This document shows positions 6,410-56,983 of a stretch of 64,000 nucleotides of DNA, piece after piece. Made by a program: the position numbers and the translations under genes. This stretch comes from a virus (lineage: Duplodnaviria > Heunggongvirae > Uroviricota > Caudoviricetes), in IMG/VR virus record IMGVR_UViG_3300042346_001601, one strand, 5' to 3'. The notes under the pieces are model-generated. The model was given only the letters and a program-made list of their open reading frames with translations. It was not told the origin of the DNA and ran no database searches. How positions within the stretch are numbered: position 1 is the first letter of the stretch; each line of letters starts with the position of its first letter.

Positions 6410-6453
6410 TTTGGTTTCTTTTATAATAAATATCTAAAAACCAACAAAAGTCA

Positions 6454-43617: not shown

Positions 43618-43652
43618 AACTGAGATTATATATCTGCATCAGGACTCATTTT

Positions 43653-44141: not shown

Positions 44142-44876
44142 TTAAAATTTTTCGGACGATAATTTCATGCTCATTAGGTCATCTAAAATAGGACCCATAA
44201 GGTAATACTCTGCTGAAGGTTGGCCCTTATCACAAACTCCAGGCTGGGAATACCAGTGGACGTTATAGTGATAATGATTGTGAACTTTGCTGCTCATTCT
44301 TTTAGACCCTTCAACCTCGTTTGTCCAGGGATCTTCTCCATCAACAATGTTTTGGATTAAGTACTCTCTATTCCAGATAGTTGCATTATGAGAGTGGAGA
44401 TAATTTTCTCCTTGACTGTGCTTCATGATCCTAACCTTGTTAATGACGTAAGGGGTAGGATCTAGGCGGTAGGCATCGTAATAGTGTAATTTGGTGTGAA
44501 TCTTGATGGATTCCGCCTTTTGGACTTCTGCGAACAGCAAAAGTTGTTCTAAAACGGGATAGGGAAAAGAAGATTTTAGCCACATATCTTCCTGGAGATA
44601 AATGATCCATTTTGAGGTAATTTCGGATAAGGTTTTTTTCATTCTGGTGGAAAATCCATTTTTATCCGTCTTTCCGGTCAAAATGCTTTGCATCGCGGAG
44701 TTAGGCTTGAAGAGGTGACCCCTGCACGAAAGTTCAAAATCCTTGACATTCCGTTCTTCGGATGCCCAATAAACAGGGATTTTTTCAAAATCCCAGTACA
44801 GGTCTAAGGAATACAACATACCAAACCAAAACTGATGGTACGAATCACACGTGTGAACAACCAAAGAAAGATCCAT
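44142..44876 (-). CDS. hypothetical protein (first gene of glycan cluster)
   Basis: 244-aa ORF. Confidence 0.45.
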   Translation of the reverse strand: MDLSLVVHTCDSYHQFWFGMLYSLDLYWDFEKIPVYWASEERNVKDFELSCRGHLFKPNSAMQSILTGKTDKNGFSTRMKKTLSEITSKWIIYLQEDMWLKSSFPYPVLEQLLLFAEVQKAESIKIHTKLHYYDAYRLDPTPYVINKVRIMKHSQGENYLHSHNATIWNREYLIQNIVDGEDPWTNEVEGSKRMSSKVHNHYHYNVHWYSQPGVCDKGQPSAEYYLMGPILDDLMSMKLSSEKF

Positions 44877-44877
44877 G

Positions 44878-45879
44878 TTATAAAGTGTTAAAATAATTAG
44901 ATTGCTGGAGATGTTTCAAATAATCTAAAATTTTCAGAAATTCTTCCGGTCTTTTCTCGCCGTGGAGAACCTTGATGTCCCTTTTAGAAGGAGGAATTCT
45001 ATAAAAATTAAGAGAATAGTCCTTATTTTCCTCCGACATCCAGGTGGAAAATCCTGGATGTCCCTCTTCATAAAAATGACAAACCGTGTTGATCCCATCT
45101 CTTAAATTTATATAGCATAGTGGAAATCCTTCGTTGGTTTTTTTCCACGATAAAACGTTGTAGATTGTCTCTTCGTGAAAAGCGGCAACCCTAGATAAAC
45201 TAATTTTCAATTTGGGAAGCAGAAAACAGAATTCCCTCCATGTTTTAACAAAATTCAAACAAGATGAATTACAGAGTATAACGTTGGTTGTTCTGTAGGT
45301 TCCCCTAGATTCCGCAGGCATTTCTAAAAATTGCATTAAAGGCCATTCTAGGGTTTTGGTTAAATCGGCCTTTGGCCAGCACCCTTCAAATGGATTTCCT
45401 CTTTCAAACCCATTTGGCTCGACTATGATCATATATTGATGAATGCCCTCCGTGCAAACTGGGTAGTCTTTTACGATGGGCATCCAATCGAACATTTCGT
45501 CGATTATAGGAGAAGCTATACAATCCGAATCTAAGTAGCAGAGCTCTTCGAAACCTTCTTCTAAAGCCAGCTGCATAGCCATAGTCTTAGCACATAAAAT
45601 TTTATAAATTTTTGGATTTTCTCTGGTAACGTAAAAATTACCATTAGCTTGATGAGTAAAATTATCTAGGTAGTCTTCATCCAGTTCTAGATCTAAATTT
45701 CTAAAGATAACTTTTTCCAGTCCTTTAAAGAAAAGGGACGCATCAGGAGAGCAATTTACACCGCAAACAATAATAGGAAATTTAGAGAAGAGTTCTATAC
45801 TTGTAGCTAAATTTTTGGCTATGTCTAGATAATTTTCAGTGGCATGTGTAATAAAAGCTCTTTTCATACAAATTCCCAT
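44878..45879 (-). CDS. possible GT-A fold glycosyltransferase
   Basis: N-terminal Rossmann-like FITHATENYLDIA... and DxD-like YLDSDCIA. Confidence 0.4.
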   Translation of the reverse strand: MGICMKRAFITHATENYLDIAKNLATSIELFSKFPIIVCGVNCSPDASLFFKGLEKVIFRNLDLELDEDYLDNFTHQANGNFYVTRENPKIYKILCAKTMAMQLALEEGFEELCYLDSDCIASPIIDEMFDWMPIVKDYPVCTEGIHQYMIIVEPNGFERGNPFEGCWPKADLTKTLEWPLMQFLEMPAESRGTYRTTNVILCNSSCLNFVKTWREFCFLLPKLKISLSRVAAFHEETIYNVLSWKKTNEGFPLCYINLRDGINTVCHFYEEGHPGFSTWMSEENKDYSLNFYRIPPSKRDIKVLHGEKRPEEFLKILDYLKHLQQSNYFNTL

Positions 45880-46790
45880 CCTCCTCCTGGAAACTTTTCG
45901 GCTTGATCCAAAACGTCAAAAATTTTACCATTTCTCCAAAACTCGAATTTTTGTAAACTAGGATCAATCTCAAATTGTTGGAACTCTGATATTGTCATCT
46001 TTTGGATATCGTTATCCTTTCTTATAAAGATTTCCAAGGGTTGTTTCACATCGTAAACCAAACAGTGTTGGGGATCTGCGGTGCCAACATTTTTGGAGAA
46101 ATAAATTTTGAATTCCTGCCAGGGAGAATAATTGTAAAAATCTTCGTGCCAATTACGAAAAGTGTAAATATGATCTTCGATAATAAAATCCCTGTTAATT
46201 GAAACATTAATTTTTTGGGCAAGATCTGCCCAAAAGTGTTCCGCACAATCAAACTCCAAACATCTTTCCCAAATAAATTCAGATTCTAGATTTTCTAATT
46301 TTGATTGTGAGACGGAAAAAAATTGGGAAGCACAATCATTAATTAATTTTTTTCCATTTTCGGTTGTTCTAAAAGCAAAAAAAGATTCTTGGTTTTTGTA
46401 TTTGATGAAATTTAAAATTTGATTATCGATGACCAAATCATATAGCATAAAATAATTCATGTCATAATTTAGAATCCTTGCAAGTTGAACTAATTTCAGA
46501 ACCTGAGAAAACCCAGCAAAACGGTTATTTCTCCAAAATCTGTAAAATTTAATTTTTTTCGCTCCAAAAAATTCTTCTTTCCAAAAAAGGTTAGAAGAAT
46601 CCTCTTTTAATGGGTTATTTGGGTTGAAAAAATAAAAATCAACTAAGTTTAGAATGTCTCTTTCCAGATGAATAGACGAATAAAGCAAAATAGATGTGTC
46701 TATTTGCCTTAAAAGTTCCAAATTAATTTTTAGAACTTTTCTTTTTTCTTCTGAATCACAATGAGAACTAATTAAAACTAATTTTTTCAT
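45864..46790 (-). CDS. uncharacterised family protein (paralog 1 of 3 in cluster)
   Basis: N-terminus KKLVLISSHCDSEEKRKVLKINLELL...SIHLERDILNLVDFYFFNPNN aligns with N-termini of 49799..50920 and 56003..56983. Confidence 0.45.
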   Translation of the reverse strand: MKKLVLISSHCDSEEKRKVLKINLELLRQIDTSILLYSSIHLERDILNLVDFYFFNPNNPLKEDSSNLFWKEEFFGAKKIKFYRFWRNNRFAGFSQVLKLVQLARILNYDMNYFMLYDLVIDNQILNFIKYKNQESFFAFRTTENGKKLINDCASQFFSVSQSKLENLESEFIWERCLEFDCAEHFWADLAQKINVSINRDFIIEDHIYTFRNWHEDFYNYSPWQEFKIYFSKNVGTADPQHCLVYDVKQPLEIFIRKDNDIQKMTISEFQQFEIDPSLQKFEFWRNGKIFDVLDQAEKFPGGGWEFV

Positions 46791-46797
46791 AATTCTT

Positions 46798-47439
46798 TTA
46801 AAAATTAATTTTTTTTAAATATCCATTTGGATTAAAAGTGACATTGTAACCATAAAAATCACACCATTTTCTATCTATTTCGAATTGTGGATTTTGTGGT
46901 AAAAATTCTTCTATCGCTCTAAGAGGACCTCCGTCATAGTTTTTTTCGATGCCCATCCAATTCACAGTTCCGTCTTCAACGATCATATAGGAATCTTCGC
47001 TGATTAAATCTTTGAATTTATTCATCACAGACAAAACATCGTTATAGTTGTGTGACCCATCTTCAATCAACATAATTTTTTTAAATGAGGATGCATAATC
47101 CAAGTTGTATTCTTGATAACCTCCCAAGAATCTCTGAATTCTTGGATGTCGATTAATCAAACCCCTCTTTTCTTCGGAATTTGATAAAAAAGTTTCATCC
47201 TGAATATCCACAGTATGAACCATACCTTTACCTATATTATTTAAAATATCACCCAAATACAGACACGATCCTCCATAATTAGTCCCTATTTCTATTATCA
47301 AATCGGGTCTTATTTCATTAATTATCATTTGATACATTACGTAATCAAATGGGGATTTTTCAGTTATAATTCCTCTATATAAAGTTTTTAGATGTCCATC
47401 CATGATACCATCTAAATTTAAGTTGTATGAATTGTTCAT
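46798..47439 (-). CDS. class I SAM-dependent methyltransferase, CmcI/rhamnosyl-O-methyltransferase-like
   Basis: DLIIEIGTNYGGSCLYL motif I; MVHTVDIQDE; family architecture of CmcI-type sugar O-MTases. Confidence 0.55.
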   Translation of the reverse strand: MNNSYNLNLDGIMDGHLKTLYRGIITEKSPFDYVMYQMIINEIRPDLIIEIGTNYGGSCLYLGDILNNIGKGMVHTVDIQDETFLSNSEEKRGLINRHPRIQRFLGGYQEYNLDYASSFKKIMLIEDGSHNYNDVLSVMNKFKDLISEDSYMIVEDGTVNWMGIEKNYDGGPLRAIEEFLPQNPQFEIDRKWCDFYGYNVTFNPNGYLKKINF

Positions 47440-47449
47440 TTTTTTTATT

Positions 47450-47854
47450 TTAAAGATCCACTCTCATAGTATTGCACTCCCTGAAAAATCCACATCTTTC
47501 ATAGAAATTAATTCTCTCATCGAAACAGGATAGAATAACCTTATAACATCCAAGATCCCTGGCTTTTTCCAAAGCTTTTTGAACCAATAAAAAACCAATT
47601 TTATTACCTCTAAATTTTTCTTTCACCGCCACATCTTCAATGAATCCTGCTAACCCGCCATTTCGGATTAATTTTCTTTGGAGATGGAGTGTAATTGTTC
47701 CTATGATTTCTTGTTCTTCAACCGCAACAAAATTGTAATTATTTGTCATCCATTCAGATAAAACGTTTTCTTGTATTTCTGTGATGTACCAGGTCTCCTT
47801 CAAGATTTCCAGTAATCCAGCTTCATCTCCCTTCTGAAATTCGCGAATGGTCAT
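47450..47854 (-). CDS. GNAT family N-acetyltransferase
   Basis: motif A VAVKEKFRGNKIGFLLVQKALEKA (Q/R-x-x-G-x-G/A). Confidence 0.8.
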   Translation of the reverse strand: MTIREFQKGDEAGLLEILKETWYITEIQENVLSEWMTNNYNFVAVEEQEIIGTITLHLQRKLIRNGGLAGFIEDVAVKEKFRGNKIGFLLVQKALEKARDLGCYKVILSCFDERINFYERCGFFRECNTMRVDL

Positions 47855-47859
47855 AAATG

Positions 47860-49020
47860 TTATTTTTGTGATTCGATAACGTTTTGAATCACAAATTCAA
47901 TATCATCATCGGTTAAAAATAAATGTAAAGGTAAACTAATAATTTTCTCGCTCAGGTTCAATGAATTCGGATTCAACCCAAATTGTGATTTGTACATATC
48001 ATAATGGGTATTATCACGATAATGAACTCCTGGATATATCCCACGAATATTTAAAAATTCCATAGTTTTGTTTCTTTCTTCCACAACAATTTGATACAAA
48101 TGCCTAGAAGAAAGTTCTGTGTACGGAGAAACTTTAACTGACTGGATGCCTGCAGATTGAAATGACTTTTCATACATTTGGCAGATTTCTCTTCTTCTGG
48201 TGTTATCCTCTTCAAGATATTTCAAACCAACTAAAGCCATCGAAGCCATCATAGAATTACCATGATATTTGAAACCAACATCAACGAGATCATATTCCCA
48301 TTTATAACTTCCTTTGTCGTGTGATCTTTGGTAAGTGTCTTTAGAAATTCCAAGCCAAGATAATTTTCTGGCTAATACGTCATAATCTTCATTCTTGAAA
48401 CAGATCATTCCCGAATCTGCGGTCGGAAGATTTTTGACCGCCTGAAAACTAAAAATAGAAACATCAGCATCTAAACCAACATGATCTTTCGAGTAACCAA
48501 CACCAACCTCTGTTTTGTTTTTTATCCAGGTTCCAGCCATATGTGCGGCATCTAAAATAATTTTAAGGCCTTTGCGTTGGCAAAAATTTACTATTTCATC
48601 GAACCTCCCGGCATTACCCCCAATTCCCACAAATAAAACAGCTTTGGTTTTTTTGGTGATTTTTGATTCTACTGATTTTGGATCCAGACATAGAAATTCA
48701 TCTACGTCTGCAAAGATTGGTCTCAGTCTTTCGTACATTATTGCGTGATTTGAAGACACAAAAGTTAAGGGGGACGTGATAATCTCGTCTCCTTCTTTCC
48801 ATTTATTGGCGTCTTTTAAAATTTTTAAGGCAAGATGCAAACCAGAGGTGTTCGAATTTAGAAAATGCGCATGCTTAAATCCGGTGTATTTTTTCCATTC
48901 TTCTTCAATCTGCTGAGTTTTAAAACCTAAACCTGTCCATCCTATTTCCATACACTCTTGCATATGTTCCCAGATTTCTGATGTTCTGAACTTAGGTTTG
49001 AATAATTGAATATTTTTCAT
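47860..49020 (-). CDS. DegT/DnrJ/EryC1/StrS-family PLP-dependent sugar aminotransferase
   Basis: 386 aa; DAAHMAG...; PLP-lysine context SIFSFQAVKNL; overall collinearity with ArnB/FdtB-type enzymes. Confidence 0.85.
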   Translation of the reverse strand: MKNIQLFKPKFRTSEIWEHMQECMEIGWTGLGFKTQQIEEEWKKYTGFKHAHFLNSNTSGLHLALKILKDANKWKEGDEIITSPLTFVSSNHAIMYERLRPIFADVDEFLCLDPKSVESKITKKTKAVLFVGIGGNAGRFDEIVNFCQRKGLKIILDAAHMAGTWIKNKTEVGVGYSKDHVGLDADVSIFSFQAVKNLPTADSGMICFKNEDYDVLARKLSWLGISKDTYQRSHDKGSYKWEYDLVDVGFKYHGNSMMASMALVGLKYLEEDNTRRREICQMYEKSFQSAGIQSVKVSPYTELSSRHLYQIVVEERNKTMEFLNIRGIYPGVHYRDNTHYDMYKSQFGLNPNSLNLSEKIISLPLHLFLTDDDIEFVIQNVIESQK

Positions 49021-49031
49021 TCTTAAAAAAT

Positions 49032-49802
49032 TTAAAAATTATGAAATTTTTGATTGAAAATCGATTTAATTTCATCTAAATCTTTTTCTGTTATTTCAGT
49101 TTGAGCTTTAGATGACATTGAATCTTCTTTTTTTTCATAAACAAATGATGGATAATCAAGATATCCTATTCTACCGCGAAGAGATAATTCAAAATTGGTA
49201 GCCCAATCTATGAAATGCTTATTTTTAACATAACTTAAATCAATGTCAGTGAAATTTCTAAAAAATCTTGATGATGAGTAGCACAAGTTACTATGATGTA
49301 AAAGTTTTTTGTCAATTTCTCCGTCACTAATTGGATGTAAAACGGAGTTATACTCTGTCATAGCAGCAATCCAAAAGCTCCCATCCGCCGAGGGAACCAA
49401 TTTTCTTCCTTCACTAATCAAATATCCAGTGCTAACGAGAGAAAAATCAGGATTATTTTCTAAAAAATCAAATTGTTTTTTTAGTTTATATGGATCTATC
49501 CAATAATCATCTGGGTCTATATAAGCAACATAAGAAGTTGAACAATTTTTGAGAAGAAAAATAACGGTTTCTATAAATCCTTTGTTTTCTTTATTGGAAA
49601 ATATCGAAATTTTAAAATTTTCGTTTTCAAAATTTTTTAATCTGTGTAAAATAGCCAGACTTTGATCTGTAGAACAGTCATCGCAGGCTATAAAATGAAT
49701 ATTGCAGTCGATTTTTTGCACGTAAACGGAAAAAAAAGCACGATCTAAAAAATAAGCATAATTGTAGACCGGCATTATAACACTTATTTCTTTTCTTTTC
49801 AT
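49032..49802 (-). CDS. glycosyltransferase family 2
   Basis: ISVIMPVYNYAYFLDRAFFSV...IACDDCSTDQS...YIDPDDYW (DxD). Confidence 0.8.
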   Translation of the reverse strand: MKRKEISVIMPVYNYAYFLDRAFFSVYVQKIDCNIHFIACDDCSTDQSLAILHRLKNFENENFKISIFSNKENKGFIETVIFLLKNCSTSYVAYIDPDDYWIDPYKLKKQFDFLENNPDFSLVSTGYLISEGRKLVPSADGSFWIAAMTEYNSVLHPISDGEIDKKLLHHSNLCYSSSRFFRNFTDIDLSYVKNKHFIDWATNFELSLRGRIGYLDYPSFVYEKKEDSMSSKAQTEITEKDLDEIKSIFNQKFHNF

Positions 49803-50920: not shown

Positions 50921-50921
50921 G

Positions 50922-51851
50922 CTAAGACAAGATCTTTTTATTCTGCCAAGCCCAGATCATATTTCCAGTGTGGTGTGTTTGAAATCCATTTTCTGAAAAG
51001 ATAAGCAATAATTGATCCGGAGGATGAATATGATATTCCAAAACTATCTTTGGTATAGACTTTAAAAATTCAGAGCTCATGTTTGGAAAAATTTCCCATT
51101 CACCTCCCTCGCAGTCTATTTTTAAAAAATCTATTTTTACCTCATTTTCTTTTGCCCATTCTTCCAGGACAACTCCTTGACAAAAAACACTTTCATCGGT
51201 GTGATCGAACGAAACAGAAACTGAATTCAAAACACTTGACTCATGAATATTTAGTTTCAAATCCTTTTTTTCCGACCACACAGCTAAATTGTGGACATGA
51301 ATTGGCAAATCACCGAAGTTTGTTTGAATAAAACTTGATAGCTTGGGGTCTGGTTCAAACGAGTGAACTTGTGCAGCTCCTTTTGTAATCGAAAAAAAGG
51401 AAAAGAAACCGATGTTTGCCCCAATATCAACAACAACATCTCCAGGTTCCACTTTACAATGTTCGTGGTTGTATTCCCCACTTAAAAAAATCTCCCAAAG
51501 TACAAGCCCTGTTACTAAGTCTTTTTTTGAAAGATTACTTCCTATATTTTTCAACCTGTTCTTTGGGTCCAAATTTCTTATATCATGCCTAAAAGTATCT
51601 GAGTAATCACAAACTTCGAGTAGGATTTCTCCAGTTTGCAAATCCTCTACTACAAAAGTGATAAATTTTGTGATTCTACCGCTATATGCTACCCAGTATG
51701 AACATTTGGGAAAAACATTAATTATGTCACCCCAATAACACAATCTTGTGTGAGAATCTATAAACTTAATTACAATTTCCCTTTCCTCGTCAAAATGACT
51801 GGTAAAGTCTATCCCGTTTCTATCCGGTAAAATGTGATTTAGAGAGATCAT
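50922..51851 (-). CDS. FkbM-family methyltransferase
   Basis: VVDIGANIGFFSFFSITKGAAQVHSFEPDPK matches FkbM (Methyltransf_21) signature. Confidence 0.7.
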   Translation of the reverse strand: MISLNHILPDRNGIDFTSHFDEEREIVIKFIDSHTRLCYWGDIINVFPKCSYWVAYSGRITKFITFVVEDLQTGEILLEVCDYSDTFRHDIRNLDPKNRLKNIGSNLSKKDLVTGLVLWEIFLSGEYNHEHCKVEPGDVVVDIGANIGFFSFFSITKGAAQVHSFEPDPKLSSFIQTNFGDLPIHVHNLAVWSEKKDLKLNIHESSVLNSVSVSFDHTDESVFCQGVVLEEWAKENEVKIDFLKIDCEGGEWEIFPNMSSEFLKSIPKIVLEYHIHPPDQLLLIFSENGFQTHHTGNMIWAWQNKKILS

Positions 51852-51858
51852 AATTTTT

Positions 51859-52635
51859 TTATTTATTATTTTGTCTTAGAACTTCTTTCTCCTTATTGAA
51901 ACAATGCAAAGAAGTGATGTGCATGGTAAAAAATCCAGGTTTAACCTCGCCCCAGGATTCGGGATTTCTTTCCCTCAATTTTTCTAGAACCCAAAAAACT
52001 TTCCGACAAGCCATATAGATATCGTCTCTAAAGTGGCGGAGATAGTCACAGGACCTGATGTAATACACGATGTGTAGATAATCCGCTCTTCTCATAAAAT
52101 GATAGCCGATTGTACAAGGAACTCGTTCCCCGTGGACAGATCCAGTGTCTTCCGGGAACCACAGGGGCAGAAAAGCCTGTCTAGTGAAAGGTTCTCTTGC
52201 CAACAAATCAATCACATCACCAAAGTCACCGTAGTTGTACCTAATGCCAAACATGGTCGAATTGGGTTCTTCTGATGCAAATTTAGGCCAGAGTCTTTCT
52301 GGATAAGTGTGAGAAAATTTCTCCTCTGTTTTGAATTGGGAATTCTTCTTTTGGTTGAAAGGCCACCATTCGTTAGAAGGAGGTGGATTCAGCGGCTGGC
52401 CCCCGATTCTTTCTTCAAAATGATCGTCCGCCCAGGGAAGATTAGGTCTGACCTCATCACGTAGTTCTTCGAGTGTGTGGGGGACAAACATAGAGAAAGA
52501 AGTATTTAAGGTTTCCCACATGTCGTCAGGGGAAGGTATACCCTGCCATCTCTCGGTCTGTACGACATATCCGTGATCGATCAATTTTTCCTTAGCCCAC
52601 TTGATGGCTTGTGAGGGCTTTTGAAATGTTTTCAA
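51859..52635 (-). CDS. thymidylate synthase-fold paralog: putative pyrimidine (dCMP-type) 5-hydroxymethylase/methylase
   Basis: C-terminal 120 aa collinear with ThyA: REPFTRQAFLPLWF~NDPDSRRIIVSAWN; ERVPCTIGYHFM~MALAPCHAFFQFY (catalytic Cys kept); YYIRSCDYLRHFRDDIYMA~LYQRSCDVFLGLPFNIASY with Asp replacing the ThyA Asn177 (the dCMP-hydroxymethylase-type switch); GFFTMHITSLHCF~GDFVWTGGDTHLY. Long divergent N-terminus. Confidence 0.7.
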   Translation of the reverse strand: MKTFQKPSQAIKWAKEKLIDHGYVVQTERWQGIPSPDDMWETLNTSFSMFVPHTLEELRDEVRPNLPWADDHFEERIGGQPLNPPPSNEWWPFNQKKNSQFKTEEKFSHTYPERLWPKFASEEPNSTMFGIRYNYGDFGDVIDLLAREPFTRQAFLPLWFPEDTGSVHGERVPCTIGYHFMRRADYLHIVYYIRSCDYLRHFRDDIYMACRKVFWVLEKLRERNPESWGEVKPGFFTMHITSLHCFNKEKEVLRQNNK

Positions 52636-52695
52636 TGGGATGAATTTTCAAATTATACGGCCTAATCTGAATTAGTTTTCGATGGATTTTAAGTT

Positions 52696-53328
52696 TCAAT
52701 CTAAAATCCAGGAAGATATTTTTTCAGGGGAAATTAAATTCAAATCTCTGGTTCTATTTTGCTGGAAAATTTTATACTCAAAATATGGGTTATCGAAAGG
52801 AACGAGCTCTTGGCTTTCCCTTTTGATCAGTCCAACACCTTCGTCGGTATTAACAGTACAAATATTCAGATCTGGCCTGGTTGCCTTTAACTTATAGATA
52901 GTTTTCCAAACTGTTCCATTCCATGCTACTCCAAGATAATCTTCGATGACCCGAATGTAATTTACTTCATACATAAAAGGATCACAATCATGAAGAACTA
53001 TAACTCCCTCTTCTGTCAAGTGATTCAAAGAATTTAAGATGTCTTTTTCTACCTGGTAAGAAAGGTGTAATCCGTCGATAAAAATAAGATCCCACTCATA
53101 ATCAGGAGGTAAATCCAACAGATTATTTTCTAGCCTGGAAAAAAATTCATCAGAGGTAAACGGATACTTGACCGGATTTTCAGGATTTTCTAGACCTGGA
53201 TCGACCCCAGATTTCTCTTCGCATTGAATTAAATCGTAACAATCCTCAGGCCATCTTACTCCTATCTCCAAGTAGGTGCTAAATTTTTTGGTACTGATAA
53301 TCTGATTGATCACTTCTGATCTATGCAT
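52696..53328 (-). CDS. class I SAM-dependent methyltransferase (Methyltransf_24/CmcI-like)
   Basis: STYLEIGV motif I; DLIFIDGLH; VIVLHDCDP. Confidence 0.55.
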   Translation of the reverse strand: MHRSEVINQIISTKKFSTYLEIGVRWPEDCYDLIQCEEKSGVDPGLENPENPVKYPFTSDEFFSRLENNLLDLPPDYEWDLIFIDGLHLSYQVEKDILNSLNHLTEEGVIVLHDCDPFMYEVNYIRVIEDYLGVAWNGTVWKTIYKLKATRPDLNICTVNTDEGVGLIKRESQELVPFDNPYFEYKIFQQNRTRDLNLISPEKISSWILD

Positions 53329-53353
53329 AAGTTCAAATTTGTAAATTAATCAC

Positions 53354-53379
53354 AAAAAACCCAGCCGAAGCTGGGTTGA
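53354..53379 (-). terminator. rho-independent terminator after small lipoprotein gene
   Basis: minus-strand AACCCAGC-UUCG-GCUGGGUU followed by UUUUUUG. Confidence 0.6.
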
Positions 53380-53392
53380 AGAGAAGAAATCT

Positions 53393-53553
53393 TATTGAGC
53401 TGAAACTGTATCAACAGGGGCGGTAGCTTCTGTTGTAGTGTCAACTGGAGTGGTTTCTTCAACTACTGCCGGTTCATCAGTTGTAGTTTCTACTACAGGA
53501 CCGCAGGAGCTTAGGATGGAAATGAGAGCGAGCGTAAGCAGGGATTTTGTCAT
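53393..53553 (-). CDS. small lipoprotein (53 aa, below ORF-track cutoff)
   Basis: MTKSLLTLALISILSSCGPVVETTTDEPAVVEETTPVDTTTEATAPVDTVSAQ: signal peptide + lipobox LSSC, Thr/Pro-rich; followed by terminator. Confidence 0.4.
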
Positions 53554-53618
53554 TGTTTTTTTTGTTTTTTGTTTTAACTTTCTTTATATATTGAATCACC
53601 AACAAGGTTTCAAATTTT

Positions 53619-54206
53619 TTAATTTGCTATTTGAAATTTTTTAGGATCTGTAAAGGCCGGCTTACGATTTGGAAAATAATAAGTTATTTTTTCTTTCTTG
53701 TCGATGGTTAGGATTTTCCAAAAACCAGTTGGAACTGTTGCTCCCGTACTTAATTTTTCAGGAGACCCTGAAAAATCTAGTTTAATGAGAACGTCGACCT
53801 GATGAAATTCTGCTACCAATTGTCTCTCTTTGGCCTCTAAAATTCTCCAAACCCCCCGATTTAAATCTTGGTGTTGGAGAGCACAGTTGAGGTAGGAGAA
53901 AGTTCTTACTAGTGACTCCTTAGAACAACTGAAAGTAGCCGCCGGGGCTAGGTGCCCTTTGTCCCAGATATTCTTTTCGTAATCCGCATGATCAGAGGTA
54001 ATGATGGAATCAACCCGGTAAAAATCCAATCCTTGTCTGCTCTCCTTTGCCGCAGTACATCTGACCGAGTATGATAATTCTAGAGGTTGCTGATATATTT
54101 CAGAGTAAACGAGAGAGTATTCCCCCGCATTAACCGCTACAGATGCTCTTTGTGAATATGTACAAAAAGGAAAAAAAAGGACAAAAAGTAAAATTCTTGA
54201 TAGCAT
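53619..54206 (-). CDS. secreted non-specific DNA/RNA endonuclease (Serratia NucA/EndoG family)
   Basis: N-terminal signal peptide MLSRILLFVLFFPFCTYSQ; active-site motif DKGHLAPAA (DRGH motif). Confidence 0.7.
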   Translation of the reverse strand: MLSRILLFVLFFPFCTYSQRASVAVNAGEYSLVYSEIYQQPLELSYSVRCTAAKESRQGLDFYRVDSIITSDHADYEKNIWDKGHLAPAATFSCSKESLVRTFSYLNCALQHQDLNRGVWRILEAKERQLVAEFHQVDVLIKLDFSGSPEKLSTGATVPTGFWKILTIDKKEKITYYFPNRKPAFTDPKKFQIAN

Positions 54207-54249
54207 TGGATATTTTTTCCTTTATATATCCAATCTGGGTGTCGTGAAC

Positions 54250-54498
54250 CTATCTAGAGGCTAAAGATTCGTACTCTTGCTCCAAGAAAGACATCTCAAT
54301 CTCGGCGGATCTCTGATCCAAGCCCATTTCAGCCATAATTAAATTTACCCCAAAATCAGTCCATTCTTTTTTAACCGAGCCTTTTAAGGGATGGTTCAGC
54401 ACCCAGAGGTGATCTTTCTTAATTTGCTCATCGTGTAATCCAGTGTAAAGCTGATGCCTTTTTTTGAGAGAATTAATAATGTGATTTTTCGTCTCCAT
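54250..54498 (-). CDS. hypothetical protein
   Basis: 82-aa ORF. Confidence 0.4.
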   Translation of the reverse strand: METKNHIINSLKKRHQLYTGLHDEQIKKDHLWVLNHPLKGSVKKEWTDFGVNLIMAEMGLDQRSAEIEMSFLEQEYESLASR

Positions 54499-54503
54499 TG
54501 ATT

Positions 54504-55289
54504 CTATTGTTTATTCTGATTTTTCTGAAATTCTTCTTTTCTCCTGGTAAAAATCAGGGACTTTTGATCAAGCCATTCTTTTTCACTTGTTTCATCCACT
54601 TTTTCTATTTCTTTAGGATGAGTTAAAGAATTCGAATGTTTCCTATAAATGTAGCTAGGGTAATGATCGTAGTTAATCTTACCCCTTAAGCTTAATTCAT
54701 AATTCATGGGCCAATCTGAATACGGAAATTCGAAAAAGTAAGGCTGAAAAAGATCCTCATAATTTCTAAAAAAACGGGAGGATGCATATACACAGTTCCT
54801 GCCGGTAGAAATAAATTCAGGGGAGGTGAAATTTTTATCCATAAATTCTTCGGGAACTCCAAAAAATAAATCTCCTTCTGGATGTGGACAAAATCCATAC
54901 TCTCCTTCTAAAGTTAAATAACCGGTAGAAGACGCGGAAAATTCTGGATTACTCTCAAGAAAATCAAATTGTTTCTGTAATTTATAAGGATCTATCCAAT
55001 AGTCATCACCATCAAGATAGGCTATATAATTTCCTTTAGCTTTAGAAAGTAATCTTTTAACTGTTTCTACTTCTCCCTTATTTTCTGTGTTGATAAAAAA
55101 GTCGAATTTGTCCTGCCCGTAAAATTTTTTGAACCGTGTTAAAATACCAGCGCTCTGATCTTGAGAAGAATCATCCCCCACTAATACTTGCACGTCGAAA
55201 TTGGTGATCTGCGAAAAAACGGAAAAAAGAGTCGTATCAAGAAATTCAGAGAAGTTGTAATTTGGAATTATGACGGTAACGGAGCTCAT
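54504..55289 (-). CDS. glycosyltransferase family 2 (paralog of 49032..49802)
   Basis: VTVIIPNYNFSEFLDTTLFSV...VGDDSSQDQS...YLDGDDYWIDPYKLQKQFDFLESNPEF (cf. YIDPDDYWIDPYKLKKQFDFLENNPDF). Confidence 0.8.
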   Translation of the reverse strand: MSSVTVIIPNYNFSEFLDTTLFSVFSQITNFDVQVLVGDDSSQDQSAGILTRFKKFYGQDKFDFFINTENKGEVETVKRLLSKAKGNYIAYLDGDDYWIDPYKLQKQFDFLESNPEFSASSTGYLTLEGEYGFCPHPEGDLFFGVPEEFMDKNFTSPEFISTGRNCVYASSRFFRNYEDLFQPYFFEFPYSDWPMNYELSLRGKINYDHYPSYIYRKHSNSLTHPKEIEKVDETSEKEWLDQKSLIFTRRKEEFQKNQNKQ

Positions 55290-55306
55290 TTTTCTCTACT
55301 CAATTT

Positions 55307-55693
55307 CTATTTTTGTGAATCACCTTTCCAAACACGATAAGAATCCTCGTCAAAGTGTTGGGTGGAAACCTCGAAGATTATCCCATCCGTTATTGCTTCC
55401 AGTTGATGTGGTTGGCCGGGCATTTGTCTGACCGAATCACCTTCTATTAAATTTTTTTCAACCACTTCTGCGTTGCGGGTGTCTATATACCGATAAATAA
55501 AAGTGCCTTCCTTTACGTACCAAGTTTCATCTTTGATCAAATGATAGTGCATTGAAAATTTGGCTCCTCCCTTAAAACATAGAAGTTTTCCACAATACAG
55601 TTCGTTATTTTCGAAGACAACCTCATGACCCCATCCTTTAGGGATGTTGCACTCATCGCAGGAGGGTACATGATATATAATAGGTGGTTCCAA
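55307..55693 (-). CDS. cupin-fold sugar isomerase/epimerase-like protein (WxcM/FdtA-like)
   Basis: 128 aa; HYHLIKDETWYVKEGTF cupin motif; size and context (next to GT2, aminotransferase, acetyltransferase) as in Fdt-type pathways. Confidence 0.5.
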   Translation of the reverse strand: MEPPIIYHVPSCDECNIPKGWGHEVVFENNELYCGKLLCFKGGAKFSMHYHLIKDETWYVKEGTFIYRYIDTRNAEVVEKNLIEGDSVRQMPGQPHQLEAITDGIIFEVSTQHFDEDSYRVWKGDSQK

Positions 55694-55781
55694 GAGATTT
55701 GTCAGTCAAATTAAATATGGACCTTTTATGAAAAAGAAAGAAATGATTTCGAATTATTTCTTAAATTTGTAAAAAAAAACA

Positions 55782-55988
55782 ATGGAAGTTAACAAGTGGA
55801 CCAATCGGATCAAGAATTTAATTCTAGATCTGGAGCTGAACCAAGACCCTGAGAAAAAGAGTGAAATTCTCGGTCGGTTAAAAGCTCATGTAGAAGATCT
55901 AAATAAAGAGCTGGAAAAATTAGAAGAGCATCACACTTTGGTGGTTTCGCAGCTAAAACAGGAGATCTCCAGATTGAATGGCCTGTAA
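55782..55988 (+). CDS. hypothetical coiled-coil protein (plus strand, in intergenic gap of minus block)
   Basis: 68 aa helical; alternative to overlapping minus ORF 55810..56019 which looks like a frame shadow. Confidence 0.3.
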   Translation: MEVNKWTNRIKNLILDLELNQDPEKKSEILGRLKAHVEDLNKELEKLEEHHTLVVSQLKQEISRLNGL

Positions 55989-56002
55989 GAAGAGATATTA
56001 AA

Positions 56003-56983
56003 TTAATAGATAGAACCATATCCGCCGTTTAAATCTGCAAACTCATACAGTTCTAAAAATCCTTTGGCACTGTAAAACTTTTCGTTCTCTTCGGTCAATT
56101 CGAATCTTTTTTCTAAGGAATATTTGCCATCCACGATTCGAACTTCCATTTTTTCAGAGGCTGGGCAGTACCAATAACCCCCAAGTGTAAGAACAATTTG
56201 ATTCTCTCCGACGTAATATATTATTTCTCTTGAGGTGTTGTTCATTAAAAAAAGATAGTAGCCAGTTTGAGATGGGAGGACTTCACACACTATCCCAATA
56301 GCGGAAATTCTATTCATCTCGCTAGTTCTAAATCCTTCCATAGCACCATCTTCGTAACATTCCTTAATCAAAAAATCAGATTCATTTACACCCAAATGCT
56401 CATAAAAATCTCTTTCGAGAATACCAGTGATATTAAAGGCATGATAGGCATCATAATTTGTGGGTAATTTGATTTTCTGCACAAAATATTCAGCATTTCC
56501 TCCAAACAAGAGAGTGTGATAATTGTAACCCTCGTTAAATTGGTATCTATGAAAGATCATTTTTTTTTCGGCATGAATCATTTCTTGCAGAAAATTATCA
56601 AAAGTAGAAAGATCTTTTTCAGAAATTAAATTGTCACATTCCAAAAAATAGAAATACTCATAGCCCATTCGGTGGGCGGCAGAAATACTAGTGTCCATAT
56701 TTTTACAGATAGCAAGCATGTGACCTATGTTCCACAGAGTTGCCTTAATAAAAGAATTAGCAAACCAACTGAATGAATGGGATCCTAAGAGTGGATTTTC
56801 TGAATCATAAATAAAATAGTCTATTTCCTTCTGCACATCAAGGGGCAGAGGTAAATGTGAAACAACCATCAGTTTGTAGTCAAGCCCCTTGAGTCTGACA
56901 ATACATTCTTTCAGAATTTGTAAATGGTAGTCACTAGAAGGAAAACAATTTATAATGAAAATTTTTTTAAATGGATAATTCAT
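56003..56983 (-). CDS. uncharacterised family protein (paralog 3 of 3)
   Basis: N-terminus KKIFIINCFPSSDYHLQILKECIVRLKGLDYKLMVVSHLPLPLDVQKEIDYFIYDSENP. Confidence 0.45.
   Translation of the reverse strand: MNYPFKKIFIINCFPSSDYHLQILKECIVRLKGLDYKLMVVSHLPLPLDVQKEIDYFIYDSENPLLGSHSFSWFANSFIKATLWNIGHMLAICKNMDTSISAAHRMGYEYFYFLECDNLISEKDLSTFDNFLQEMIHAEKKMIFHRYQFNEGYNYHTLLFGGNAEYFVQKIKLPTNYDAYHAFNITGILERDFYEHLGVNESDFLIKECYEDGAMEGFRTSEMNRISAIGIVCEVLPSQTGYYLFLMNNTSREIIYYVGENQIVLTLGGYWYCPASEKMEVRIVDGKYSLEKRFELTEENEKFYSAKGFLELYEFADLNGGYGSIY

What the first reader, a model, noticed from the sequence alone, without database searches (positions are those of the whole stretch)
44142..56983. 13-kb sugar-modification cluster enclosing a thymidylate-synthase-fold gene: candidate novel DNA hypermodification or virion glycosylation system
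Fourteen co-directional genes encode 2x GT2, a DxD GT-A-like protein, DegT aminotransferase, GNAT acetyltransferase, FkbM and two CmcI-type methyltransferases, a cupin isomerase and three paralogs of an unknown family. Together these are the tools to build an N-acetylated, O-methylated amino-deoxy-hexose glycan. No nucleotidyltransferase or 4,6-dehydratase is present, so the precursor presumably comes from the host. A ThyA-fold paralog with a cytosine-type active site (51859..52635) and a secreted DRGH nuclease sit inside the cluster. T4 couples dCMP hydroxymethylase to glucosyltransferases and a nuclease that destroys unmodified DNA. By analogy this cluster may make glycosylated hydroxymethyl-pyrimidine DNA with a sugar not described in DNA. 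The alternative is glycosylation of capsid or fibre proteins, as in giant viruses.
Basis: partly seen in the sequence, partly recalled or inferred. Interest (0 to 1): 0.85.

Follow-up and report, generated by a model that had tools for sequence, protein, structure and literature searches.

The report
Variable sugar island around phage TS-homolog
A very large, uncultured water-borne phage carries a 13-kb block of sugar-building genes that differs from strain to strain and is wrapped around a conserved, unusual relative of thymidylate synthase built to act on cytosine; whether the sugars end up on the phage's DNA or on its proteins is still open.

Summary
44142-56983 carries 17 co-directional minus-strand ORFs:
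- two GT2 glycosyltransferases and a GT8-like one (model pLDDT 91);
- three distant paralogs of an unannotated family;
- DegT, GNAT, FkbM, CmcI and Methyltransf_24 enzymes, and a cupin;
- an exported-type Endonuclease_NS;
- a divergent thymidylate-synthase-fold protein.

The TS-like protein has T4 gp42-like active-site motifs, with Asp at the ThyA-Asn177 position. A canonical thyA, split by a homing endonuclease, lies elsewhere in the window.

Comparative genomics changes the picture. The TS-like gene is a core gene of a clade of 130-430 kb T4-related phages. In most relatives it sits in a replication and nucleotide module with no sugar genes beside it. The sugar genes are lower in GC and are swapped between near-identical strains. 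They look like an accessory island inserted on both sides of a resident gene.

Three sub-lineages nevertheless keep an island at this spot, as T4 and RB69 keep glycosyltransferases beside their TS homologs.

- Best reading (~0.4): a strain-variable, methylated amino-sugar glycan placed on a non-DNA acceptor, probably virion protein, with the TS-like enzyme separately modifying dCMP.
- DNA cytosine glycosylation: ~0.3.
- Host-envelope remodelling: ~0.2.

This is a new variant of a known kind.

The parts
56003..56983 (-). Paralog 1 (326 aa) of an unannotated GT/MT-associated family. It is conserved at this position in all island-bearing relatives.
   Evidence: No Pfam or PHROG hit. Thirteen close homologs give alignment A2, with an N-terminal beta-alpha-beta start and a conserved E-C-D-N motif. 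A full HMM search finds 1007 50%-identity clusters. The domain is fused to GT1, GT2, GT9, FkbM or Methyltransf_24 domains in proteins of 633-1664 aa.
55307..55693 (-). Small cupin (128 aa) of the phosphomannose-isomerase type. It is core-like and 73% identical in a sister sub-lineage.
   Evidence: Pfam Cupin_2 7.5e-7 and MannoseP_isomer 5.7e-4. 73% identical to L049. GC 0.40. The sugar-isomerase role is inferred, not shown.
54504..55289 (-). GT2 glycosyltransferase b (261 aa). It is a variable cassette gene.
   Evidence: Pfam PF00535 4.3e-19. 42% identical to the other GT2. In strain L006 it is replaced by an FkbM methyltransferase.
54250..54498 (-). Conserved 82-aa protein of unknown function.
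   Evidence: No family hit. Homologs lie upstream of the TS-like gene in L006, L018, L020, L049 and L058/59.
53619..54206 (-). Non-specific beta-beta-alpha-Me endonuclease (195 aa) with a signal-peptide-like N-terminus. It is an accessory gene.
   Evidence: Pfam Endonuclease_NS 7e-22. DKGH and N..Q..LN.G.W motifs, and the N-terminus MLSRILLFVLFFPFCTYSQ (hydrophobicity). Present in L006, L009 and L058/59 but absent from L018 and L020.
53358..53377 (-). Terminator-like hairpin after the nuclease gene.
   Evidence: 8-bp stem with 5 G-C pairs, a TTCG loop and a T-run. The total number of such sites in the region is no higher than in shuffles, so this is suggestive only.
52696..53328 (-). Class I SAM methyltransferase (Methyltransf_24, 210 aa). 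It is a variable gene.
   Evidence: Pfam 8.4e-8. The PHROG label 'DNA methyltransferase' (2.7e-10) is annotation only. The same Pfam domain is fused to the GT8-like family in other phages, which points to a sugar methyltransferase.
51859..52635 (-). Divergent thymidylate-synthase-fold enzyme (258 aa, TTG start) with a cytosine-type active site. It is a core gene of the phage clade.
   Evidence: - Family hits: phrog_160 9e-26; Pfam TS only 9.4e-4, below the cut-off.
- Profile comparison: hhalign against gp42 E 0.0017, against RB69 gp48 0.0014, against the window's own ThyA 0.17.
- Residues: invariant C174, R194, S195, D197, D205, Y111 and H244.
- Composition: GC 0.43.
50922..51851 (-). FkbM-family methyltransferase (309 aa).
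   Evidence: Pfam 5.9e-13 and NCBIfam fkbM_fam 6.5e-24.
49799..50920 (-). Paralog 2 (373 aa).
   Evidence: hhalign against A2 gives 91% probability, E 1.1e-6. In strain L006 the same domain (86% identical) is fused behind a GT92/GT2_4 domain in a 621-aa protein.
49032..49802 (-). GT2 glycosyltransferase a (256 aa). It is a variable cassette gene with the lowest GC in the block (0.29).
   Evidence: Pfam 7.7e-20. Absent from L006. GC.
47860..49020 (-). DegT-family PLP sugar aminotransferase (386 aa), closest to UDP-4-keto-sugar 4-aminotransferases.
   Evidence: Pfam 8.4e-73. NCBIfam gives ArnB 196.6 bits and PseC 193.2 bits, both below the equivalog cut-offs. The best PDB sequence match is ArnB, 2.9e-43. 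Absent from L006.
47450..47854 (-). GNAT N-acetyltransferase (134 aa).
   Evidence: Pfam 4.7e-20. Absent from L006.
46798..47439 (-). CmcI / rhamnosyl O-methyltransferase family (213 aa).
   Evidence: Pfam 2.9e-32. NCBIfam rhamnosyl O-methyltransferase 3.4e-26, below the cut-off. Deleted in strains L002 and L004.
45864..46790 (-). Paralog 3 (308 aa).
   Evidence: hhalign against A2 gives 95% probability, E 1.8e-8. Conserved in L006 and L020.
44878..45879 (-). GT8-like retaining GT-A glycosyltransferase (333 aa).
   Evidence: - Structure: AF2 pLDDT 91.1, pTM 0.90. Foldseek matches XXYLT1, LgtC, LARGE1, UGGT and glycogenin at 9e-9 to 1e-7.
- Family: 166 relatives, many of them fused to GT2 or Methyltransf_24 domains.
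- Motif: invariant D117-S-D119.
- Relatives: 39% identical homolog directly downstream of the TS-like gene in L049.
44142..44876 (-). Conserved 244-aa protein of unknown function. The GT-A-like motifs (N-terminal beta-strand, QED) are inferred only.
   Evidence: No family hit. Not related to the paralog family. 63% identical in L018. Core-like GC 0.40.
43216..44130 (-). Conserved small genes (93 aa, 68 aa, and 133 aa with a C-terminal TM segment). In relatives they directly follow the TS-like gene, so they mark the right-hand edge of the insertion.
   Evidence: tblastn synteny. phmmer finds the 93-aa homolog in 51 and the 133-aa homolog in 46 of 80 IMG/VR TS-like loci.
4645..6771 (-). Canonical thyA, split by a homing-endonuclease gene. 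The exons are 6454-6771 and 4645-5445; the HEG is 5438-6409. It shows that the phage makes dTMP by a separate enzyme.
   Evidence: Pfam Thymidylat_synt 2.6e-63 for the C-terminal part, with PFNIAS (Asn). The N-terminal ORF matches ThyA residues 2-97 at 6e-29.

Best explanation
Two things lie side by side here.

(1) A core nucleotide-metabolism gene. The TS-like enzyme uses a catalytic Cys. It probably also uses a folate one-carbon donor, because the Asp equivalent to ThyA D169 is kept. It modifies C5 of a cytosine nucleotide, most likely dCMP. The product is unknown. The residue at the ThyA-L143 position is Arg, a signature not seen in any characterised class.

(2) An accessory, strain-variable glycan-assembly island inserted on both sides of that gene.
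- All its enzymes are soluble.
- A host-made NDP-4-keto-sugar is transaminated by the DegT enzyme and N-acetylated by the GNAT enzyme.
- Sugars are then strung together by up to seven GT-A-type or GT-associated proteins: two GT2, one GT8-like, three paralogs, and possibly the 244-aa protein.
- The glycan is O-methylated by the CmcI, FkbM and Methyltransf_24 enzymes.
- The product is a multi-sugar, methylated, amino-sugar-containing glycan built in the cytoplasm on a non-DNA acceptor. The most likely acceptor is phage structural protein, as in chloroviruses, mimiviruses and mycobacteriophages.
- Cassette swapping changes the glycan between strains.

Shown: gene content, folds, paralogy, the insertion and variability, and the core status of the TS-like gene.
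Inferred: pathway order, the acceptor, and the independence of the two parts.
For: The TS-like gene is a resident core gene:
- It is conserved at 66-77% identity in 135-373 kb contigs, inside a module of topoisomerase, PolB, ATP-grasp, metallophosphatase, TS-like, 93-aa, 133-aa and RNase HII genes. No sugar gene is adjacent.
- In 80 IMG/VR loci, only 5 have a homolog of any of the sugar-gene queries (15 window genes plus 8 from related loci) within 1.5 kb, and 20 within 10 kb.
- The same family sits in plain nucleotide cassettes of small phages, with kinase, dUTPase/MazG, deaminase and Pol I.
- TS-like GC is 0.43, against 0.29-0.36 for the sugar genes.

The sugar genes are an exchangeable island:
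- Strains with 96-100% identical TS-like proteins delete CmcI. Others replace GT2, DegT and GNAT by other methyltransferases and a GT92 fusion.

The glycan looks complex:
- Seven GT-type proteins and three methyltransferases are present.
- The paralog and GT8-like families occur as domains of 560-1664 aa GT-GT-MT fusion proteins. That architecture belongs to glycan-assembly enzymes. The characterised DNA glycosyltransferases I am aware of are single-domain enzymes.
- DNA glycans described so far reach three sugars (PMC13326640; 10.1101/2023.12.21.572611).

The enzymes and their supply fit a low-demand cytoplasmic process:
- No enzyme has a TM segment, and no flippase, polymerase or initiating transferase is present.
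- No nucleotidyltransferase or dehydratase is encoded here, so supply depends on a minor host intermediate. That suits some thousands of protein sites better than roughly 10^5 cytosines per genome (inference).
Against: - Three sub-lineages whose TS-like proteins are only 68-69% identical to the window's keep a sugar island around the TS-like gene while its content changes: the window type, L018/L020, and L049/L058. In L049 the GT8-like gene starts directly after the TS-like gene. This could reflect selection for linkage, as in T4 (gene 42 next to beta-gt) and RB69/DLP3.
- GT-A enzymes are known to glycosylate DNA (Pyle et al.).
- The island lies among early-type genes, not next to structural genes. 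No structural gene or glycosylation target is visible in the window.
- The 1.5 kb and 10 kb co-occurrence counts are lower bounds, because only homologs of my query set were detectable.
Confidence: 0.4

Rival explanations
1. DNA cytosine hypermodification.
- The TS-like enzyme makes 5-hydroxymethyl-dCMP or another C5-functionalised dCMP.
- That nucleotide is incorporated during replication.
- One or more island glycosyltransferases then attach sugars to the base.
- Cassette swapping between strains would diversify the DNA sugar, in an arms race with modification-dependent (type IV) restriction.
For: - The active site is gp42-like: C174-T, R194-S-x-D197, F-R-D-D205. The profile is closer to gp42 and RB69 gp48 (E about 0.0015) than to the window's ThyA (0.17).
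- A separate canonical thyA is present, as in T4.
- In T4, RB69, DLP3 and RL38J1 the cytosine-type TS homolog sits next to GTs and sugar-nucleotide genes (PMC13326640).
- An island persists around the TS-like gene in three sub-lineages. Their variants carry a HAD+nucleotidyltransferase fusion, SDR enzymes, UDP-Glc dehydrogenase and NUDIX.
- The aminotransferase is ArnB-like. Lee et al. speculate that Ara4N-pathway parts were co-opted for DNA arabinosylation.
- Both GT-A and GT-B enzymes glycosylate 5hmC, and ThyS+GT contigs are common.
Against: - The signatures for a hydroxyl-bearing product are absent. The L143 position is Arg, not Asp or Glu. D169 is kept, so it lacks the D169N signature that Lee et al. 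propose as diagnostic of 5hoC synthases.
- No dCTPase or dNMP kinase was found in the island or among roughly 70 scanned window ORFs. In RB69, DLP3 and RL38J1 a kinase is adjacent.
- Most relatives have the TS-like gene without neighbouring GTs.
- Seven GT-type proteins, three methyltransferases and multi-domain GT-MT relatives imply a glycan far larger than any DNA adduct known.
- No GT here belongs to a family shown to act on DNA.
- Precursor supply is not encoded.
Confidence: 0.3
2. Host-envelope remodelling. The soluble GTs and methyltransferases act at the inner face of the membrane on the host's lipid-linked intermediates (O-antigen, capsule or general O-glycan). This would change the cell surface during infection, for example to block superinfection or to stop progeny adsorbing to debris. 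Export would use host flippases and ligases.
For: - The GT2 enzymes score best against teichuronic acid, EPS and PglI-type enzymes that act on undecaprenyl-linked acceptors.
- The CmcI and FkbM families are typical of glycolipid and O-antigen tailoring.
- Strain-level cassette variation resembles O-antigen loci.
- The likely host phylum, Bacteroidota, makes methylated surface glycans. The host call rests on the signal-peptide style, on Flavobacterium and Cellulophaga phage matches and on the moraphage paper. The statement about methylated glycans is from my own knowledge.
- The island lies among early-type genes.
Against: - No membrane-associated or initiating enzyme, flippase or polymerase is present, and no TM segment occurs in any enzyme.
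- For a lytic phage of several hundred kb, the benefit of building a whole new surface glycan is unclear.
- The GT8-like, GT34 and GT92 families seen in the variants are more typical of eukaryote-like and giant-virus protein or glycan glycosylation.
Confidence: 0.2
3. The TS-like enzyme works on a ribonucleotide or a cytidine-activated sugar rather than on dCMP. This would resemble MilA, which hydroxymethylates CMP. The island would then make a modified nucleotide-sugar or a nucleoside-like small molecule.
For: - The Tyr that contacts the 3'-OH in ThyA (Y209) is Phe246 here.
- The aminotransferase is also PseC- and LegC-like, and those pathways end in CMP-activated sugars.
Against: - The fold scores do not separate MilA from ThyA or from dCMP enzymes.
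- The family is a core gene next to replication genes in many phages that have no sugar genes.
- No CMP-sugar synthetase is present.
Confidence: 0.04

Closest known systems
T4 gene 42 (dCMP hydroxymethylase) with alpha/beta-glucosyltransferases, and the RB69/DLP3 5-hydroxycytosine arabinosylation clusters (PMC13326640)
   Same: - The phage is T4-related. A related 373-kb contig's PolB fragment (L009) best matches T4-type huge-phage polymerases, and Rnl1, Rnl2 and Pnkp genes are present.
- A TS-fold enzyme has Cys-Thr, RSxD and FRxD motifs, with Asp at the specificity position.
- A separate thyA is present.
- Glycosyltransferases and sugar-tailoring genes are physically next to the TS homolog.
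   Different: - The residue at the L143 position is Arg rather than Asp or Glu, and D169 is kept, so the product class is unassigned.
- No adjacent nucleotide kinase or dCTPase is present.
- The GTs are GT2 or GT8-like GT-A enzymes and unannotated paralogs, not the GT-B enzymes of T4, RB69 and DLP3.
- There are far more GTs, plus three methyltransferases.
- The TS gene is conserved without these neighbours in most relatives.
Metavirome ThyS- or 5mYOX-associated GT-A/GT-B gene clusters that glycosylate 5hmC (Pyle et al., bioRxiv 10.1101/2023.12.21.572611; cited as Cell Rep 2024 in PMC12619734)
   Same: - An uncultured phage contig carries a thymidylate-synthase homolog within 10 kb of GT-A enzymes and further sugar-modifying genes.
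- The GTs resemble LPS, teichoic-acid and capsid-glycan enzymes.
   Different: - Membership in their GT HMM families was not testable here.
- Their products are mono- to trisaccharides of hexose, HexNAc or heptose taken from host pools.
- Aminotransferase, acetyltransferase and O- or C-methyltransferase tailoring has not been reported on DNA.
Virus-encoded capsid and fibre glycosylation machineries: chlorovirus PBCV-1 A064R-type GT-GT-methyltransferase enzymes, the Mimivirus aminosugar cluster, and mycobacteriophage capsid and tail-tube glycosylation (Freeman 2023, cited in PMC12619734)
   Same: - The GT-A enzymes are soluble and need no lipid-carrier machinery.
- A DegT-type aminotransferase is combined with an N-acetyltransferase and sugar O-methyltransferases.
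- Relatives of the island proteins are multi-domain GT-MT fusions.
- The glycan differs between strains.
   Different: - No structural gene is nearby, unlike in mycobacteriophages.
- No acceptor protein has been identified.
- The comparison with PBCV-1 and Mimivirus rests on my knowledge of those systems, not on a test made here.
'Moraphages', large freshwater Bacteroidota phages (Arch Virol 2025, PMC12619734)
   Same: - Contigs of the window's phage exceed 200 kb and its relatives run to 135-434 kb; sampling environments were not looked up.
- The gene set matches: a glutamine-synthetase-like gene, a ClpA/B-type chaperone, a PolB in two pieces and T4-like core functions.
- That paper lists four core orthologous groups as putative glycosyltransferases whose target is undecided.
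   Different: - Membership was not tested, because neither marker phylogeny nor genome identifiers were available to me.
- That paper does not mention thymidylate synthase at all (0 occurrences of 'thymidylate'), so it does not describe the TS-like gene, and it does not describe the variable island.

Membership tests
Thymidylate synthase ThyA (Pfam PF00303) | Sequence reaches the family's curated score | tested here: not met
   18.8 bits against a cut-off of 24.3. The NCBIfam archaeal TS model gives 28.9 bits against 174.6.
Thymidylate synthase ThyA (Pfam PF00303) | TS fold with the catalytic Cys, the phosphate-binding Arg-Ser and the Tyr general base | tested here: met
Thymidylate synthase ThyA (Pfam PF00303) | Asn at the E. 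coli 177 position (dUMP specificity), and Leu at position 143 | tested here: not met
   Asp205 and Arg171 occupy these positions. The window's true thyA has PFNIAS.
TS-homolog-initiated cytosine hypermodification (T4 / RB69 / DLP3 type) | TS homolog with Asp at the N177 position (dCMP substrate) | tested here: met
   D205 aligns with gp42 D179 at equal spacing from the RS motif (R+11). The CT motif is shared with gp42 and RB69 gp48.
TS-homolog-initiated cytosine hypermodification (T4 / RB69 / DLP3 type) | Signature of a hydroxyl-bearing product: L143D/E for hydroxymethyl, or D169N for 5-hydroxy | tested here: not met
   R171 is at the L143 position and D197 is retained. The criteria come from PMC13326640. 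A new signature does not exclude a hydroxylated product.
TS-homolog-initiated cytosine hypermodification (T4 / RB69 / DLP3 type) | Companion dCTPase and dNMP kinase | tested here: inconclusive
   None was found among about 70 window ORFs scanned with Pfam or PHROGs, and none within 10 kb in relatives. The window covers less than a third of the genome.
TS-homolog-initiated cytosine hypermodification (T4 / RB69 / DLP3 type) | Glycosyltransferase of a family shown to act on DNA | tested here: inconclusive
   The GT2 and GT8-like GT-A folds are confirmed. No comparison with the published DNA-GT profiles was possible. Net charge does not discriminate, because RB69 gp46:47 is acidic too.
TS-homolog-initiated cytosine hypermodification (T4 / RB69 / DLP3 type) | Linkage of the TS homolog and the GTs conserved across relatives | tested here: inconclusive
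   An island surrounds the TS-like gene in three sub-lineages. It is absent within 10 kb in L009 and L016, and only 5 of 80 loci have a homologous sugar gene within 1.5 kb.
TS-homolog-initiated cytosine hypermodification (T4 / RB69 / DLP3 type) | Non-canonical cytosine in virion DNA | not testable with these tools
   This needs nucleoside LC-MS or raw nanopore signal.
Virus-encoded protein (capsid/fibre) glycosylation machinery | Soluble virus-encoded GTs and sugar methyltransferases, without lipid-carrier export genes | tested here: met
   No 19-residue window scores above 1.4 (Kyte-Doolittle) in any enzyme. No Wzx, Wzy or WecA-type family appears.
Virus-encoded protein (capsid/fibre) glycosylation machinery | GT genes adjacent to the structural genes they modify (mycobacteriophage type) | tested here: not met
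   The neighbours are nucleotide-metabolism, RNA-repair, chaperone and small early-type genes.
Virus-encoded protein (capsid/fibre) glycosylation machinery | Glycan detected on virion proteins | not testable with these tools
   This needs an isolate or glycoproteomics.
CAZy GT8 (retaining GT-A), for 44878-45879 | GT-A fold closest to GT8 members, with a DxD motif | tested here: met
   Foldseek matches XXYLT1, LgtC, LARGE1, UGGT and glycogenin at about 1e-8 on a pLDDT-91 model. D117-S-D119 is invariant.
CAZy GT8 (retaining GT-A), for 44878-45879 | Sequence reaches Pfam Glyco_transf_8 | tested here: not met
   There is no hit for the window protein. Only 3 of 47 homologs hit, and weakly (best 0.0016).

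The most novel reading that the evidence does not exclude
A whole clade of freshwater phages with genomes of several hundred kb replaces or decorates cytosine.
- It would use a so far uncharacterised branch of the TS superfamily, with Arg at the L143 position, Asp at 169 and Asp at 177. The database holds more than 4,800 90%-identity clusters of this branch.
- In the window's sub-lineage the modified base would then be glycosylated with strain-specific sugars that are aminated, N-acetylated and O- or C-methylated.
- These would be the first amino or methylated sugars found on DNA.
- Cassette swapping would record an arms race with modification-dependent restriction.
Probability: 0.27. Interest if true: 0.85.

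Novelty: new variant of a known kind. Interest (0 to 1): 0.6.

Why it matters
If the glycan goes on DNA, it would extend known DNA sugar chemistry from plain hexoses, HexNAc, heptose and arabinose to tailored amino and methyl sugars. It would also show strain-level diversification of a DNA modification.

If the glycan goes on virion proteins, it would be a clear bacteriophage counterpart of giant-virus capsid glycosylation, with O-antigen-like variability. That bears on how phage surfaces evade or engage their hosts.

Either way, two large families are flagged for biochemical work:
- the TS-like branch, with an unassigned product signature and members in cultured Gordonia, Streptomyces, Serratia, Yersinia and Brevundimonas phages;
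- the 'paralog' domain, with about 1,000 50%-identity clusters and frequent fusion to GT and methyltransferase domains.

Both are cheap to test, because cultured phages carry the TS-like gene.

Tried and rejected
- Net charge of the GT-type proteins as a test for DNA binding. All island proteins are acidic and T4 beta-GT is basic. But the RB69 DNA arabinosyltransferase gp46:47 is acidic too, so the criterion was dropped.
- Palindrome avoidance as a proxy for unmodified DNA. 4-mer palindromes are mildly under-represented (GATC, CATG and TGCA about 20-25% below expectation). That is too weak and too ambiguous in 64 kb.
- The T4 late-promoter motif TATAAATA. There are 4 matches against 6.2 expected, and none in the island. 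This is uninformative.
- Sigma-70-like promoters and terminators. The counts equal those of shuffles. Only the single hairpin at 53377-53358 is worth noting.
- Repeats that might flank the cassettes. None was found beyond the paralogous GT2 stretch.
- Sequence searches of the paralog family, GT8-like family, cupin and Methyltransf_24 protein against PDB. Nothing useful came back.
- Megablast of the island against cultured phages found no match.
- The dU-DNA paper (PMC12697855) was checked in case this TS-like family had a role there. It does not.
- The genomic context of a 1440-aa multi-domain relative of the paralogs did not identify its host or its acceptor.

Full report
WHAT THE WINDOW IS

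The 64-kb window has 36% GC and is packed with short minus-strand genes. It has no close relative among 50,697 cultured phage records.

Its gene content is that of a T4-related phage:
- T4-type RNA ligases 1 and 2 and a Pnkp-like gene;
- homing endonucleases;
- a glutamine-synthetase-like gene and a ClpB-like ATPase;
- a tmRNA.

The exact TS-like protein of the window occurs on contigs of 0.2-1 Mb. Relatives lie on contigs of 135-434 kb. A PolB fragment from a related 373-kb contig (L009) best matches uncultured 460-735 kb phages and Lak phage. Another window protein matches exonucleases of Tunturiibacter (best hit), Flavobacterium and Cellulophaga phages.

This fits the recently named freshwater 'moraphages' of Bacteroidota (PMC12619734). 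I could not test membership.

CHECK OF THE OBSERVATION

All the reported genes exist at the stated coordinates.
- The two GT2 genes are paralogs, 42% identical.
- The DxD protein is a GT8-like retaining GT-A enzyme. Its model has pLDDT 91, and the best matches are XXYLT1, LgtC, LARGE1, UGGT and glycogenin.
- The three 'unknown paralogs' are related at 91-95% hhalign probability. The 244-aa protein is not related to them.
- A full HMM search shows that the paralogs belong to a family of about 1,000 50%-identity clusters.
- In six of the nine long members I scanned, the paralog domain shares a 633-1664 aa protein with GT1, GT2, GT9, FkbM and/or Methyltransf_24 domains.
- In a sister strain the 373-aa paralog is fused behind a GT92-like domain.
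- The GT8-like family is likewise fused to GT2 or Methyltransf_24 domains in other large phages.

These fusions tie all the unannotated proteins to glycan assembly.

The aminotransferase is closest to UDP-4-keto-sugar 4-aminotransferases (ArnB, PseC) but stays below the equivalog cut-offs. No enzyme has a membrane segment. Only the nuclease has an export-type N-terminus.

THE TS-LIKE PROTEIN

Profile alignments place it marginally nearer to gp42 and RB69 gp48 (E about 0.0015) than to the window's own ThyA (E 0.17).

The active site aligns as follows:
- C174-T matches the 'CT' of gp42 and gp48, where ThyA has 'CH'.
- R194-S-C-D197 matches 'RSND' in gp42.
- F202-R-D-D205 matches 'FRND179' in gp42.
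- Y111 matches ThyA Y94.
- H244 matches ThyA H207.

Asp205 therefore sits where Asn177 defines dUMP specificity and Asp defines dCMP specificity (criteria from PMC13326640).

Two product-class markers do not fit any known class:
- The L143 position is an invariant Arg. It is Leu in methylases and Asp or Glu in hydroxymethylases and hydroxylases.
- D169 is retained, whereas 5-hydroxycytosine synthases have Asn there.

The window also holds a canonical thyA with Asn. That gene is split by a homing-endonuclease gene, much like T4 td. The TS-like enzyme therefore has another job, most likely C5 modification of dCMP with an unassigned product.

The family is very large and I found no paper that characterises it:
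- more than 4,800 90%-identity clusters in the protein database;
- 138 cultured phage records, mostly annotated 'thymidylate synthase';
- in Yersinia and Brevundimonas phages it sits in classical nucleotide cassettes with a kinase, a pyrophosphatase, a second very divergent TS-like gene, a deaminase and a DNA polymerase.

IS THE TS-LIKE GENE PART OF THE SUGAR CLUSTER?

Evidence that it is not.

In five relatives with 66-77% identical TS-like proteins, the order is topoisomerase, PolB, ATP-grasp, DUF6734, metallophosphatase and TS-like. Homologs of window genes 43849-44130, 43653-43859 and 43216-43617 follow directly, then a roughly 520-aa protein and RNase HII. The window's nine genes from 44142 to 51851 are thus an insertion into a conserved order.

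Three of the five relatives have a GT1+FkbM fusion and a GT9-like gene 6-8 kb downstream. Two have no sugar gene within 10 kb.

In 80 IMG/VR loci with TS-like proteins 55-93% identical to the window's:
- 20 have a homolog of any of my sugar-gene queries within the flanks;
- 5 have one within 1.5 kb.
These counts are lower bounds, because only homologs of my queries could be seen.

Composition agrees. The TS-like gene, the cupin, the 82-aa gene and the 244-aa gene have GC 0.39-0.43, like the flanking core genes. The GT, methyltransferase, DegT and GNAT genes have GC 0.29-0.36.

Strains whose TS-like protein is 96-100% identical differ in cassette content:
- CmcI is deleted in L002 and L004.
- In L006, GT2, DegT and GNAT are replaced by other methyltransferases and a GT92 fusion.

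Evidence that it might be.

The island is found around the TS-like gene in three sub-lineages, with very different content:
- L018/L019 carry a HAD+nucleotidyltransferase fusion, two SDR enzymes and two C-methyltransferases.
- L020 carries a GT92-like protein.
- L058/L059 carry an SDR, a UDP-glucose dehydrogenase, a NUDIX enzyme, an FkbM+GT34 fusion and the GT8-like gene.
- L049 has only the cupin, the 82-aa gene, the TS-like gene and the GT8-like gene, plus a PIG-L-domain protein.

Either this position is a long-lived hot spot for accessory genes, as in T4-type genomes, or linkage to the TS-like gene is selected. The precedent for selected linkage is strong. T4 gene 42 abuts beta-gt. RB69, DLP3 and RL38J1 cluster their TS homolog with sugar-nucleotide genes and GTs.

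WEIGHING THE ACCEPTOR

The fold of the GTs does not decide the matter, since both GT-A and GT-B enzymes glycosylate 5hmC. Net charge does not decide it either.

What tips me towards a non-DNA acceptor is the scale and style of the machinery:
- There are up to seven GT-type proteins and three methyltransferases.
- Their relatives are multi-domain GT-GT-MT proteins.
- DNA adducts described so far stop at three sugars, and the DNA glycosyltransferases I know of are single-domain enzymes.
- No precursor supply is encoded in this strain.
- No kinase or dCTPase lies next to the TS gene.
- The TS-like gene is independent of the island in most relatives.

Against that stand the persistent co-location, the early-gene setting and the absence of nearby structural genes.

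My probabilities are:
- about 0.4 for a strain-variable glycan on virion (or other) protein, with the TS-like enzyme acting separately;
- about 0.3 for DNA cytosine glycosylation;
- about 0.2 for host-envelope remodelling;
- a few percent for a MilA-like nucleotide or small-molecule role.

THE NUCLEASE

It is a bona fide Endonuclease_NS with a DKGH motif and a signal-peptide-like N-terminus. It is present in only some relatives. A good terminator-like hairpin follows it.

An exported, accessory nuclease is a poor analogue of the cytoplasmic T4 endonucleases that degrade cytosine DNA.

NOVELTY

ThyS-plus-GT clusters as candidate DNA sugar modification systems are already published at scale (Pyle et al.). 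So are TS-homolog product signatures (Lee et al. 2026). Glycosyltransferases of unknown target are listed as core genes of the probably related moraphages.

What is new here:
- an unassigned TS active-site signature in a very large family;
- tailoring enzymes for amino, N-acetyl, O-methyl and C-methyl sugars around that gene;
- strain-level cassette exchange;
- a large unannotated domain family associated with GT and methyltransferase domains.

I rate this a new variant of a known kind, with interest 0.6.

Noticed in passing
window 57505-57944 (-): A phage-encoded tmRNA: Rfam RF00023, 72.1 bits against a gathering score of 47, E 4e-26, full-length model match. It lies in the gap between the 130-aa membrane-protein gene and the divergent ClpB-like gene, at the upstream edge of the island. 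ARAGORN did not report it.
   Followed up: partly
window 4645-6771 (-): The canonical thyA is split. The N-terminal 105-aa ORF (6454-6771) matches ThyA residues 2-97 at 6e-29. The C-terminal ORF (4645-5445) matches Pfam at 2.6e-63. A homing-endonuclease-like ORF (5438-6409) separates them, and a second HEG-like ORF follows at 4004-4573. The layout resembles the T4 td intron, but Rfam found no group I intron at the gathering threshold.
   Followed up: partly
window 24099-24230 (-): A tRNA-model hit just above threshold (31.5 bits against 29) spans 132 nt. It may be an intron-containing or otherwise odd tRNA. ARAGORN found no tRNA in the window.
   Followed up: no
window 19592-20047, 22265-23335, 29340-30059, 34080-35156 (-): An RNA-repair gene set is spread over 15 kb: polynucleotide kinase/phosphatase-like, T4 Rnl2-like and T4 Rnl1-like genes, plus a metallophosphoesterase. 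It suggests a counter-measure against host anticodon nucleases.
   Followed up: no
L012 5214-6840; L013 5141-6825: In Yersinia phage vB_YenM_P744 and Brevundimonas phage Strzyga, the TS-like ortholog is preceded by a second, extremely divergent TS-like protein of 277-280 aa that keeps the Cys and the Arg. The pair sits between kinase/pyrophosphatase genes and a DNA polymerase. It may be a two-subunit or two-step pyrimidine-modifying pair.
   Followed up: partly
L007, L009, L015-L017 around 9300-10000; about 30 of the loci L024-L063: In most large-phage relatives a calcineurin-like metallophosphatase of about 220-235 aa lies immediately upstream of the TS-like gene, within a few bases or overlapping it. 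This is a conserved gene pair of unknown meaning, perhaps a nucleotide phosphatase feeding the enzyme. The window lacks this arrangement.
   Followed up: partly
window 9137-9954 and 11739-12326; 23619-24068 and 27968-28417 (-): Small-gene paralog families of unknown function are repeated within the window: three members of phrog_12005 and two members of phrog_1479.
   Followed up: no
window 37991-38794 (-) and 36969-37886 (-): Outside the island, a 267-aa protein has a weak partial PHROG match labelled glucosyltransferase (1.6e-6). Next to it, a 305-aa protein matches endolysin and tail-fibre families (7.6e-24).
   Followed up: no
window 41876-42928 (-): A glutamine-synthetase-like gene (350 aa; Gln-synt_C 1.1e-16) is conserved just beyond the island in all island-bearing relatives (L006, L020, L058). 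The same kind of gene is reported in nine moraphages.
   Followed up: no
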